DNA of 63,104 nt, the filler included, from Pirum gemmata (taxonomy: Eukaryota), in NCBI GenBank assembly GCA_002812295.1. It is 17 parts of 17 records of this genome, joined end to end, with 100 filler letters (N's around TTAATTAATTAA, not from the genome) between each part and the next. Parts side by side here need not be neighbours in the genome. Positions count along the whole stretch, not along the records: positions 56,293 to 59,633 come from PDIN01002749.1; 16 more parts are not named here. One strand, given 5' to 3'. The stretch's first letter is position 1. Every line of letters starts with the position of its first letter. The notes under the pieces were generated by a model. That model saw only the letters and a program-made list of their open reading frames with translations. It made no database searches and was not told the origin of the DNA. Position numbers and translations under genes: made by a program. Shown one piece after another: positions 56,515-59,349 of the stretch.

Positions 56515-59349
56515 ATGGACGATAAAGATATTATAGCTGAAACGGGTGATAAACTAAACTCCTCTCGTTCTCAATATGAATTGGAAATGAAGGAGAGCTG
56601 TTCGAATTTCATTTTTCAAAAGCTGGGTAATTTAAAAGACTATAAAGGTGATGGCTTACAAGAAAAAATCGACCAATTAGTGAAAACCGAAGGCGTAGTC
56701 ATGTTTTCCAAAACCACTTGTGGATTTTGTAATGAAGCCAAAAGTATACTACAACGAAGTGGAGTTGAAAAAGTTATTATTATAGAAGTAGATCAAGCTA
56801 AAGAAGGTGGCAGAATTCATAATGCTATTCAAAAATATTCTGGGGTCAAAACCGTGCCTGTTCTGTACATTCAAAGTGAATTAATAGGAGGTTGTACAGA
56901 TTTGAAAAAATTAGAGTCTACTGGTGAGTTAACTAGTAAATTGAATGGCTTAGTTAAACGTAGTATTAACGATTCCTGGGAACCTACTTTTGATCGACCT
57001 TGGTCTGGAAAGGAACGGGCTGTTGCCCCGTTTTTTTGCTTTCCTGACACCGTCAACAATAACCAAATCCGAGTTATTGGTTTTCAAGTTTTTTGTATTT
57101 CGGTCGTAGGAGCAATCTCTGAGGCCTATGGTGAAGAACACAAATACGCAACGCATTGGGTTTTTGTGGGTTTGTTATGTGATTTTATTTTACGCATGCT
57201 GTTTGGAGCTTTTTTCAGTCCATTAGGGGCCATCGCTGGTTTGGTTACTTTACCTTTGAAACCAGATTTTAGACCTGGCCCACCCAAACAATTTGCTTGC
57301 TTGTGTGGTGTAACTTTTTCTACGATGATTGTAGCTATTTGGTTCGGAGGAAATAACGCCAAAGGTACCAATATTGCTGGTTCTGTGGTCTGTGCTATGT
57401 TGGCGGGTGCTGCTGGTATGGAGGCCTTTTTAGATTTTTGTGCGGGTTGCGTGATGTACGGTTGGTTTATTAAATTTGGATTACTAAGAGGAACTGTTTA
57501 TAAAATGCATGTCAATTTTAAAGATGAGAAACAAACTTTTTATGATGATAATCATAAAGATAGTGGGTTTTCAACTCCAGACGTAAAAGTTTTGAGTGAA
57601 GAAGAAGCCTTTGAAAGTTTGCCAATGTTGGAAAAAAACCCATCTACGATTCAATATAAAGTGAAAGATAATGATTTTTGGAAAGAGCAATTTCATTTTA
57701 TCAAGTACTGCCAAGTTAACTATTTCATGTGGCCATTGTCTATTGCTACAACTGCTGCAGTTTTTAGAGCAGCCGCAGTAGACAACAGTCAGTTAATCAG
57801 TGTCCATGATGGAGTATGGTATGCTATCGGTTTAGTTGCCGCCATTATTTTTGTTAGTTTATCACTTCTTTACACTTTGAAGGCTATTTTGTACACCAAA
57901 AAAGTAAGAAAAGAACTATATTGCCCATTGCGTGGACCAGCGTTTGGTGCAATTCCTCTAACTATTCAGATTTTTGGATTTTTGCTTCAAAAATGGTCAT
58001 CAACTGCAGCCGAAGTCTTCATTTGGGCTGGAGTAAGTACTTTGTTCGTTCTTTCTTTAATGGCTTTTGCCGTAGCCTTACAGCGTAGGTTATCTTTTGC
58101 TCATATTCAGTTAACTTGGATGATTTTGCCTGTTGGGAACGTAATTGGTGCATTCTTTTTAAATAATGTTAATCCAGATTACTCTGAAGCTGCCTTAGCT
58201 CTGTACGGGTTTTCTCTTCTCATGTATATATCTTTATTTGCCATCACTTTGTACAAAGGTATTATTGATCACAATTCTGATGATAGGCTTCGTTCTAATT
58301 ATTTCATTTGGGTCGCTGCTCCTGCCGCTTTCGCTTTAGGTACTTTTTCTCTTTTTGGTATTAATAGCTTGTTTGCTAAAATGTTTTACTACATCGCTGT
58401 AGCCCTTATGTTTAGTTTGTGTTACCTTATTTTCCCTGGTAAATTCTTTTTTAGAGGGCATCAATTCCCTGCATTAGGTATGGGTCTACACGCAGTATCC
58501 TTTTCTGTCAACGCTATTGCTTTAGCTGGTTTGATGTATTATCAGTATTCAGTCACAACTACTTTAACAAAATGGATGGCCTTAATAGGCGTATCGGCGG
58601 GTGCTTGGGTTACATTAACTTTCTCCATTCATACCATCAACGCTTTGTTTTCTGGTTTTATCTTTCGACCTGAATTGAAGTGGGGTCCCTTCTCTGCTTT
58701 TAATCGTCTTATGCACGAGTCATTCCGTGGTATTAGTAAGAAATTACATGTTCTTATTGAAAATCCTGGACCCGAATTCAAACAACTTTGGAAAGAATTT
58801 GAACTTTTGCATCACACTCATGCTGATCAAGAAGATAACTTTTTATTCCCACTTATCAGTGAATTTGCTCCTAATCATCCTCAACACGCGCAAGATGAAC
58901 ATGAGGAACATCACAAGCAGTTTGAAAACATTAACGCTATGATAGAATCTGGCGACTATACTAGCATGGTAGAACCAATCAAAGAATTTCTTGCAGATAT
59001 GGAAACTCATATGGTATGGGAAGAAAAGAATTTACAACCAATAGGACGTAAATATATTCCGCTCGATAAGCAAACTGAAGTCATTAACAAAATATGGGCC
59101 TCTGTACCGGGAGAAACTTGGAAAATATTGATTCCAGTTTTATTAAATAACATGCCTTACCATGCAATGAGAATACGTTGGTTGAAAGCAGTTTGTTGGG
59201 CAATGCCGGAACGTGCGCAGCAAATTGGTTACTATTTATATAAAGGAGTTTCCGATACTATGTGGATTTCTATTAGCACTGATATGCCTGAAATTATCCC
59301 CCGACTTTGTGAAGGTCCCGATCAAAGTAGATGGGTGCGCTATTATTAA
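56515..59349 (+). CDS. Multidomain membrane protein: glutaredoxin + DUF4395 + SLAC1/TehA (TDT family) anion channel + hemerythrin (HHE) domain, intronless, 944 aa from the first ATG
   Basis: Grx: FSKTTCGFC, KTVP, IGGCTD. DUF4395: FPDTVN, DFILR, FSPL, PGPPKQFA, AGMEAFLDFCAGC. TDT: KAILYTKKVRKELYCPLR, WMILPVGNVIGA, FIWVAAPAA, AVSFSVNAIALA. HHE: MHESFR, HADQEDNFLFP, EHEEHH, HMVWEEKNLQP. One uninterrupted frame with no Ns. Confidence 0.9.
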   Translation: MDDKDIIAETGDKLNSSRSQYELEMKESCSNFIFQKLGNLKDYKGDGLQEKIDQLVKTEGVVMFSKTTCGFCNEAKSILQRSGVEKVIIIEVDQAKEGGRIHNAIQKYSGVKTVPVLYIQSELIGGCTDLKKLESTGELTSKLNGLVKRSINDSWEPTFDRPWSGKERAVAPFFCFPDTVNNNQIRVIGFQVFCISVVGAISEAYGEEHKYATHWVFVGLLCDFILRMLFGAFFSPLGAIAGLVTLPLKPDFRPGPPKQFACLCGVTFSTMIVAIWFGGNNAKGTNIAGSVVCAMLAGAAGMEAFLDFCAGCVMYGWFIKFGLLRGTVYKMHVNFKDEKQTFYDDNHKDSGFSTPDVKVLSEEEAFESLPMLEKNPSTIQYKVKDNDFWKEQFHFIKYCQVNYFMWPLSIATTAAVFRAAAVDNSQLISVHDGVWYAIGLVAAIIFVSLSLLYTLKAILYTKKVRKELYCPLRGPAFGAIPLTIQIFGFLLQKWSSTAAEVFIWAGVSTLFVLSLMAFAVALQRRLSFAHIQLTWMILPVGNVIGAFFLNNVNPDYSEAALALYGFSLLMYISLFAITLYKGIIDHNSDDRLRSNYFIWVAAPAAFALGTFSLFGINSLFAKMFYYIAVALMFSLCYLIFPGKFFFRGHQFPALGMGLHAVSFSVNAIALAGLMYYQYSVTTTLTKWMALIGVSAGAWVTLTFSIHTINALFSGFIFRPELKWGPFSAFNRLMHESFRGISKKLHVLIENPGPEFKQLWKEFELLHHTHADQEDNFLFPLISEFAPNHPQHAQDEHEEHHKQFENINAMIESGDYTSMVEPIKEFLADMETHMVWEEKNLQPIGRKYIPLDKQTEVINKIWASVPGETWKILIPVLLNNMPYHAMRIRWLKAVCWAMPERAQQIGYYLYKGVSDTMWISISTDMPEIIPRLCEGPDQSRWVRYY

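What the first reader, a model, noticed from the sequence alone, without database searches (positions are those of the whole stretch)
56515..59349. Single-chain glutaredoxin-DUF4395-SLAC1/TehA channel-hemerythrin fusion: candidate redox/O2/iron-gated anion channel
Seen: one gap-free ORF with four modules in order: dithiol glutaredoxin (CGFC at 56719-56730, TVP, GGCTD; about 56660-56945), DUF4395 membrane domain (about 57040-57485), TDT-family channel (about 57710-58650) and HHE hemerythrin with H, HxxxE, H and HxxxE ligands (about 58700-59060) plus a helical tail. Established: SLAC1/TehA/Mae1/Ssu1 proteins pass anions such as chloride, nitrate, malate and sulfite; hemerythrin domains sense O2, NO or iron in FBXL5 and BRUTUS; glutaredoxins reduce glutathionylated thiols. 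I know no described protein with this architecture. Inference: a channel or efflux system with built-in thiol-redox and di-iron sensors, or a coupled reduce-and-export detoxification unit for oxyanions, sulfite or nitrite.
Basis: partly seen in the sequence, partly recalled or inferred. Interest (0 to 1): 0.92.

Follow-up and report, generated by a model that had tools for sequence, protein, structure and literature searches.

The report
Anion channel with redox and iron modules
This intact gene encodes one membrane protein, conserved in many algae and other single-celled eukaryotes and not found described in the papers searched, that joins a plant-type anion channel fold to a glutaredoxin, a cysteine-bearing membrane domain and a predicted two-iron domain, so the cell's redox and iron/oxygen state likely controls its anion flow.

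Summary
Observation confirmed. Window 56515-59349 (+) is one intronless 944-aa ORF: glutaredoxin, DUF4395, SLAC1/TehA and hemerythrin all pass Pfam cut-offs. It belongs to a wide family: 134 representatives at E<=1e-30, including Creolimax (nearest), diatoms, Porphyridium, green algae and Discoba. AlphaFold with 141 homologues gives pLDDT 91.6 and pTM 0.91, so the modules are predicted to pack as one unit. The gate Phe (88 of 92), the six di-iron ligands (72 of 84) and the DUF4395 CxGC (about 90%) are conserved. DUF4395 nearly always comes with a second dithiol: Grx or Rdx in eukaryotes; an adjacent or fused thioredoxin (20 of 28 actinobacterial loci) or its own tail CxxC (6 of the other 8). 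Best reading (0.45): an anion channel gated by an FBXL5-type di-iron cap and a glutathione-fed thiol relay. Main rival: a coupled reduce-and-transport unit for sulfur or nitrogen oxyanions. Ion flow, gating, metal binding and transcription in this organism are untested. Ten paper searches found no description. This scan noted the same fusion before in other genomes (four findings).

The parts
56515..59349 (+). Whole ORF, 944 aa plus stop, intronless (P0001)
56650..56955 (+). Class I dithiol glutaredoxin domain (aa 46-147); CGFC 56719-56730, TVP 56851-56859, GGCTD 56887-56901
   Evidence: Pfam PF00462; GRX_euk 76.3 bits, below its cut-off of 87.25; Z 17.9, rmsd 1.3, 99 aligned to AtGrxC5 3rhb; first Cys 69 of 76
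57028..57489 (+). DUF4395 membrane domain (about aa 172-325): four predicted TM helices, GPPKQFA 57277-57297, E303, CxGC (CAGC) 57439-57450 on the predicted cytosolic side
   Evidence: Pfam PF14340; C309 104 of 115, C312 103 of 114; helices and charge bias
57490..57684 (+). Cytosolic linker (aa 326-390): a helix, a short strand pair and the conserved KxK..W/F motif before TM1 of the channel
57685..58668 (+). Ten-TM SLAC1/TehA (TDT) channel domain (aa 391-718); gate-position Phe663 at 58501-58503
   Evidence: Pfam PF03595; Foldseek TM 0.86 to TehA and SLAC1; Z 40.4, rmsd 2.0, 307 aligned to 9m7s_C; F663 88 of 92
58681..59064 (+). Hemerythrin-like (HHE) domain (aa 723-850), joined to TM10 by the conserved KWGP; ligands H734, H769, E773, H796, H832, E836
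   Evidence: Pfam PF01814; all six kept in 72 of 84; nearest solved: NMB1532, FBXL5, YtfE/ScdA
59065..59346 (+). Conserved helical tail (aa 851-944) with WAxPERAQQIG and PExxPR motifs; no Pfam family
   Evidence: pLDDT 86-97

Best explanation
The gene encodes a single-chain protein with a SLAC1/TehA channel fold, likely an anion channel, whose pore would be opened or closed from the cytosolic side by a predicted di-iron hemerythrin-like cap and by a glutaredoxin-to-DUF4395 thiol relay. Shown: the four domains, their conserved Cys, His/Glu and gate residues, and the family's spread. Predicted: all modules pack as one body (pTM 0.91), and Grx, CxGC and the cap all face the cytosol. Inferred: glutathione reduces the Grx CxxC, which reduces the DUF4395 CxGC; the cap binds two irons and changes shape with Fe, O2 or NO; because it hangs on TM10 by a short invariant linker, that change moves the pore gate. 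The relay would either tune the gate or re-reduce the cap. The permeant anion is unknown.
For: Channel fold and gate Phe kept. All six ligands in 72 of 84; nearest solved relatives include the Fe/O2 sensor domain of FBXL5. KWGP linker: K722 78 of 91, P725 93 of 98. Channel and hemerythrin-tail diverge together more closely (Spearman 0.63) than either does with Grx or DUF4395 (0.32-0.44; 35 full-length proteins). Two Met-initiated proteins, P0125 and P0137, hold only channel, hemerythrin and tail and nest inside the family tree, so channel plus cap looks like the core. pTM 0.91 over 944 residues. Positive-inside charge pattern fits one cytosolic face. DUF4395 has a second dithiol beside it in four separate ways: Grx, Rdx (P0046, P0060), thioredoxin adjacent or fused (20 of 28 loci), own tail CxxC (6 of 28).
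Against: No ion flow, gating, metal binding or redox turnover was measured. In bacteria DUF4395 works without a channel (no SLAC1 hit among the 110 neighbour frames scanned), and needing a reductant suggests turnover of a substrate more than pure sensing. Loss of the Grx Cys and loss of the DUF4395 CxGC do not co-vary significantly (Fisher p 0.20, 75 sequences), nor do CxGC and the iron ligands (p 0.25, 60 sequences). The channel is the least conserved domain (mean identity 0.27), and the Pro after the gate Phe is kept in only 50 of 91 (Ser in this protein).
Confidence: 0.45

Rival explanations
1. Coupled enzyme-channel for sulfur oxyanions: DUF4395 cysteines take sulfane sulfur from thiosulfate or a persulfide, Grx releases it, and the pore moves thiosulfate in or sulfite out, as Ssu1 exports sulfite and YeeE/YeeD take up and split thiosulfate.
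For: Three actinobacterial loci read thioredoxin, poly-Cys leader, DUF4395, rhodanese, matching the cysteine-attenuated Ms5788-cysA2 operon (10.1101/834739, section 5 read). Eight of 28 loci have an ArsR-like HTH regulator upstream, five of these with a weak TusA-like domain. One locus of the nearest subgroup sits between an NMT1-type ABC transporter and CbiX. A 2014 paper title links PF14340 to sulfur metabolism (reference line only).
Against: The bacterial subgroup that groups with the eukaryotic domain (support 0.977) is the one without thioredoxin, rhodanese or leader; its neighbours are mixed. The channel's nearest solved folds and plasmid hits are SLAC/SLAH/TehA types; Ssu1 itself could not be compared. 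Channel-plus-cap proteins lack the relay.
Confidence: 0.25
2. Channel-fed di-iron enzyme: nitrite or another oxyanion enters through the pore and is reduced at the hemerythrin-like site (to NO, for nitrite) with electrons passed from glutathione through Grx and CxGC.
For: The profile of the cap hits YtfE and ScdA (E 0.002-0.02), which share the four-His two-Glu site; their nitrite reductase activity and the nitrate permeability of SLAC/SLAH channels are recalled, not from a call. A dithiol gives two electrons, which matches a diferric-to-diferrous step (inference). One rigid unit is predicted.
Against: NMB1532 and FBXL5 score better than YtfE/ScdA. Members without the relay keep all six ligands (P0125, P0137). 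No co-loss of CxGC and ligands.
Confidence: 0.12
3. Metalloid or metal detoxification unit: CxGC binds As(III), Te or Se species or a metal ion, Grx cycles it, and the TehA-like pore exports the product; in the bacterial subgroup with a second CxxC the four cysteines may bind a metal and not electrons.
For: TehA match in 12 of 12 members. One plasmid DUF4395 lies among copper and heavy-metal genes and one locus is next to an LMW phosphatase-family gene. Second CxxC in 80 of 80 loci of the nearest subgroup.
Against: These neighbours are single cases. The family looks old and vertically kept, unlike a mobile resistance gene.
Confidence: 0.1
4. The pore is degenerate and the protein is a membrane-anchored redox/iron sensor or scaffold that passes no ions.
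For: Channel domain is the least conserved part; TM9 varies after the gate Phe.
Against: Full ten-helix fold at rmsd 2.0 to SLAH1 and TehA; gate Phe 88 of 92, W504 99 of 105, R593 88 of 99.
Confidence: 0.08

Closest known systems
Plant S-type anion channels SLAC1/SLAH1/SLAH3 and Haemophilus TehA (TDT family, PF03595; PDB 9m7s, 9m7r, 7en0, 7wnq, 3m71)
   Same: Ten-TM fold (Z 33.6-40.4), Phe at the TM9 gate position (alignment to SLAH3 and SLAC1), cytosolic ends.
   Different: About 20% identity. In place of the plant cytosolic regulatory regions (phosphorylation control, recalled) it carries Grx-DUF4395 in front and a hemerythrin-like cap behind. Trimer and conductance untested.
Hemerythrin-like HHE domains: FBXL5 (3v5x), NMB1532 (2p0n), Rv2633c homologue (6q09), YtfE/ScdA; plant BRUTUS (recalled, not compared)
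   Same: H, HxxxE, H, HxxxE ligand set; Z 13.3-16.3.
   Different: Fused to a channel by a short linker and followed by a conserved 94-aa helical tail; no F-box or RING. Lacks the constant HxxxH of O2-carrier hemerythrins (H800 in 38 of 84).
Class I dithiol glutaredoxins (AtGrxC5 3rhb, yeast Grx1)
   Same: CxxC, TVP and GGCxD motifs; Z 17.9.
   Different: Tethered to a membrane protein; replaced by an Rdx domain in two members and absent from several.
Bacterial DUF4395 (PF14340) proteins, such as the gene upstream of cysA2 in mycobacteria (Ms5788 position)
   Same: P[KR]xFA and CxGC motifs (CxGC in 28 of 28 loci); pairing with a second dithiol.
   Different: Stand-alone or fused only to thioredoxin; no channel or hemerythrin among scanned neighbours. 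No solved relative by sequence. That Ms5788 is itself a DUF4395 protein is inferred from gene order in three loci, not read in the paper.
YeeE/YeeD (TsuA/TsuB) thiosulfate uptake system (PMC11073785, abstract seen)
   Same: Works-like analogy only: a membrane protein teamed with a cysteine-bearing partner for an inorganic sulfur anion.
   Different: No YeeE family hit on this protein; different parts.

Membership tests
TDT / SLAC1-TehA family | PF03595 above curated cut-off | tested here: met
   71.6 bits against 27.9
TDT / SLAC1-TehA family | Ten-TM helical-hairpin fold | tested here: met
   Predicted model: TM-score 0.86 to 3m73 and 7en0; Z 40.4, rmsd 2.0, 307 aligned
TDT / SLAC1-TehA family | Pore-occluding Phe on TM9 | tested here: met
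   F663 aligns with the Phe of the TFP motif of SLAH3 and SLAC1; 88 of 92. That this Phe is the gate is recalled.
TDT / SLAC1-TehA family | Trimer | not tested
TDT / SLAC1-TehA family | Anion conductance | not testable with these tools
   Needs electrophysiology or flux assay
TehA equivalog / tdt subfamily (NCBIfam) | Score above curated whole-protein cut-off | tested here: not met
   TIGR00816 48.4 against 237.25; NF008032 26.1 against 342: a homologue, not TehA itself
Class I glutaredoxin | CxxC/S, TVP, GG motifs and thioredoxin fold | tested here: met
   CGFC, TVP, GGCTD; PF00462 52.7 against 22.9; Z 17.9
Class I glutaredoxin | GSH-dependent thiol-disulfide activity | not testable with these tools
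   Needs an enzyme assay
DUF4395 (PF14340) | Profile match with PxxFA and CxGC | tested here: met
   80.2 bits against 24.5; motifs shared with bacterial members
Hemerythrin-like HHE domain (FBXL5/YtfE type) | Four-helix bundle with H, HxxxE, H, HxxxE | tested here: met
Hemerythrin-like HHE domain (FBXL5/YtfE type) | Di-iron binding and O2/NO response | not testable with these tools
   Needs purified protein
Canonical O2-carrier hemerythrin | H, HxxxE, HxxxH, HxxxxD ligand set (recalled) | tested here: not met
   Last motif is HxxxE (E836 84 of 88); second His of HxxxH only 38 of 84; bacteriohemerythrin hits E>=0.5
Ssu1/Mae1 fungal TDT subfamily | Closer to Ssu1/Mae1 than to SLAC1/TehA | not tested
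   No Ssu1 or Mae1 sequence or model came up in any call

The most novel reading that the evidence does not exclude
An ancient eukaryotic machine, lost from animals and most land plants, in which a glutathione-fed wire (glutaredoxin to the DUF4395 CxGC) runs to a di-iron centre that sits under an anion pore: the channel either gates on the oxidation state of that centre, as a self-resetting O2/NO/iron sensor, or feeds it nitrite or a sulfur oxyanion to be reduced. It would give DUF4395 its first function, as a membrane dithiol oxidoreductase.
Probability: 0.2. Interest if true: 0.92.

Novelty: new variant of a known kind. Interest (0 to 1): 0.76.

Why it matters
SLAC1-type channels are known to be switched by phosphorylation (recalled); none of the ten paper searches showed one with its own redox and iron modules. 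The family is present in tractable algae and protists (green algae, Porphyridium, diatoms, Diplonema, Creolimax), has a confident model and a short list of near-invariant residues, so three open questions become testable by point mutants: what DUF4395 does, what the hemerythrin-like domains of algae sense, and how protists tie anion flux to redox or iron state.

Tried and rejected
Chance join, mis-assembly or contamination: rejected. Single-sequence fold was useless (pLDDT 42.4); the alignment-based model was used. Stand-alone Grx-DUF4395 proteins: P0191, P0193 and P0194 end at or soon after the DUF domain in unrelated sequence and look like gene calls cut at an intron, so they were not counted as a real architecture. 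Transcription in this organism: no RNA holder on record; X1 is only guessed to be RNA, and the control stretch was repeat-rich and partly covered in both runs, so no verdict. Complex prediction (Grx against the rest) was not available: no result. Co-loss tests were not significant. Direct pattern scan of prokaryotic genomes with the window's DUF4395 found nothing. One search drew the same genomes, so neighbourhood data cover Actinomycetota only, plus two plasmids of other phyla. ORF clustering was swamped by shadow frames and not used. ESM Atlas gave only sub-0.9 leads to DUF4395 and hemerythrin clusters. Paper searches: DUF4395 (two papers, passing mentions read), hemerythrin+SLAC1 (15; two listings, not read), (none; listings only, none on this fusion by title or abstract start), accession and Pfam numbers (84). 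Lyubetsky 2014 is not held. Supplements were not searched; the fusion may be listed in omics tables or in subscription journals.
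Full report
Observation. The window is AT-rich eukaryotic DNA with gaps. Positions 56515-59349 (+) form one 944-codon frame without stop, N or intron. Pfam finds glutaredoxin (aa 61-124), DUF4395 (180-319), SLAC1 (399-704) and hemerythrin (733-842), each above its cut-off. 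One contig from each of two public runs lies on the ORF with no difference; these may be the source data, so they confirm the assembly but are not independent. GC3 matches three other ORFs of the window. Transcription in this organism was not shown, but orthologues come from transcriptome assemblies as single ORFs: P0008 and P0005/P0014 are labelled complete, and P0035 is a transcript contig.

Family. A full HMMER scan of 1.84 billion representatives gave 134 proteins at E<=1e-30, of which the best 150 hits overall were listed. With profiles built from the first alignment, 43 of the 164 proteins then held show Grx, DUF4395, channel, hemerythrin and tail in this order (some are near-duplicates), 21 lack only the Grx, and most others are fragments. 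I looked up names for 30 proteins. Named members: Creolimax fragrantissima CFRG6246T1 (nearest, 46% over 794 aa), Stauroneis constricta, Porphyridium purpureum, Tetrabaena socialis, Myrmecia bisecta, Pedinophyceae YPF-701, Diplonema papillatum, Papus ankaliazontas and a Sphagnum jensenii record. They are annotated by one domain only (Glutaredoxin-C1, SLAH3, tellurite resistance protein). A FastTree tree of channel, cap and tail (79 of the 141 aligned sequences, those at least 70% filled, midpoint root) joins the window with Creolimax (1.0), the three named green algae (0.84), and Porphyridium with the diatoms (0.99); Diplonema and Papus fall in one clade (1.0). That fits an old, mostly vertical history, and suggests that the window is from an ichthyosporean (inference). 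Most tips are unnamed and no root was tested, so no date of origin is claimed; no named member was an animal or fungus, but absence was not tested.

Structure. With 141 homologues, AlphaFold gives mean pLDDT 91.6 and pTM 0.91. A chain of loosely tied domains, the largest a third of the length, would not be expected to reach that pTM (inference), so the modules are predicted to pack as one body. The channel part matches SLAH1, TehA, SLAH3 and SLAC1 (Z 33.6-40.4), the Grx part AtGrxC5 (Z 17.9), and the cap NMB1532, an Rv2633c homologue and FBXL5 (Z 13.3-16.3). DUF4395 and the tail were barely tested by that search. Four DUF4395 helices plus ten channel helices, and the Lys/Arg bias of alternate loops (one loop, T4-5, is not clear-cut), put Grx, CxGC and the cap on the same, cytosolic side.

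Conserved residues (alignment A2, 141 of the proteins held; n is the number with a residue in that column). Grx: first Cys 69 of 76, second Cys 54 of 76, with CPFC the commonest motif (29). DUF4395: R186 85 of 101, D223 96 of 104, R227 93 of 103, Q259 108 of 112, E303 103 of 115, C309 104 of 115, C312 103 of 114. Channel: W504 99 of 105, R593 88 of 99, F663 88 of 92. Cap: all six ligands in 72 of 84. This is the four-His two-Glu set of hemerythrin-like domains; the profile's best solved hits are NMB1532 and FBXL5, then YtfE and ScdA.

What DUF4395 suggests. Of the 30 best loci from a sample of Actinomycetota genomes I used 28, leaving out two unpublished ones. CxGC is in 28 of 28. A thioredoxin-fold sequence lies within 1.5 kb on the same strand, or in the same frame, in 20 of 28 (the profile was seeded from seven of these loci; Pfam alone called thioredoxin in ten loci among the frames I sent). 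Three loci read thioredoxin, poly-Cys leader, DUF4395, rhodanese. This matches the Ms5788-cysA2 operon of M. smegmatis, which is de-repressed when cysteine is low (10.1101/834739, passages and section 5; PMC4633059, passages); neither text names DUF4395. A 2014 paper title ties PF14340 to sulfur metabolism (seen only as a reference line). Against carrying this over: six of the eight loci without thioredoxin have their own second CxxC in the tail, and this subgroup, not the sulfur-operon one, groups with the eukaryotic domains (support 0.977; second CxxC in 80 of 80 related loci). Its neighbours are mixed (46 frames from 12 loci). In eukaryotes that tail CxxC is absent and a Grx, or in two proteins an Rdx domain, is fused in front. 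The common thread is a second dithiol beside the CxGC, which points to a redox cycle; a metal site is not excluded.

Mechanism. Channel and cap-tail track each other more closely than other domain pairs, are tied by a short conserved KWGP linker, and occur without the redox module in P0125 and P0137 (their genomic context could not be checked). I therefore take channel plus cap as the core and commit to a gated anion channel (0.45), with the Grx-DUF4395 relay tuning the gate or re-reducing the cap. Rivals: coupled sulfur-oxyanion handling (0.25), a channel-fed di-iron reductase (0.12), metalloid export (0.10), a non-conducting sensor (0.08). Results against my reading: no significant co-loss between modules, DUF4395 works without channels in bacteria, and nothing functional was measured.

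Literature and novelty. Ten searches of the held library found no paper on this architecture; DUF4395 appears in two papers in passing. Most subscription papers and all supplements were outside these searches. The scan's own notes hold four earlier findings of the same fusion in other genomes; I saw them after my analysis, and they are not independent support. Three of the four parts are known families, and the combination is undescribed as far as searched: a new variant of a known kind, interest 0.76.

Noticed in passing
window:52980-53231: Near-perfect 250-nt hairpin (about 120-bp stem, -199.9 kcal/mol, z -27.8): a fold-back element or a long small-RNA precursor.
   Followed up: partly
window:53838-54116 (+): Short broken frames that resemble a LINE-type endonuclease (resemblance recalled; no Pfam hit), just downstream of the hairpin.
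   Followed up: partly
window:49506-51305 (+): Intronless 599-aa FAD-linked oxidase (FAD_binding_4 plus BBE) with a likely signal peptide and a Ser/Thr-rich, hydrophobic C-terminus.
   Followed up: partly
window:25535-26659 (-) and 32679-33899 (+): Intronless class B DnaJ, and a 406-aa protein with a likely signal peptide and only a weak crystallin hit (E 0.16).
   Followed up: partly
P0046, P0060: Family members in which an Rdx (PF10262) domain stands in place of the glutaredoxin.
   Followed up: partly
P0118: A CRAL/TRIO domain in front of Grx-DUF4395; may be a gene-call artefact.
   Followed up: no
L107:1234-2022 (-), L108:169-1425 (+): Bacterial DUF4395-thioredoxin fusions that carry a CxxC at the end of both halves of DUF4395; the two halves of DUF4395 align with each other (hhalign E 1e-5, probability 82%).
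   Followed up: partly
L102, L103, L106, L110, L114: HTH_20 regulator with a weak TusA-like C-terminal domain directly upstream of DUF4395 (and thioredoxin in four of the five): a candidate persulfide-sensing operon.
   Followed up: no
P0011: The only land-plant-labelled member (Sphagnum jensenii record, 31.5-kb contig) groups with unnamed sequences and not with green algae; it may be a contaminant of that assembly.
   Followed up: no
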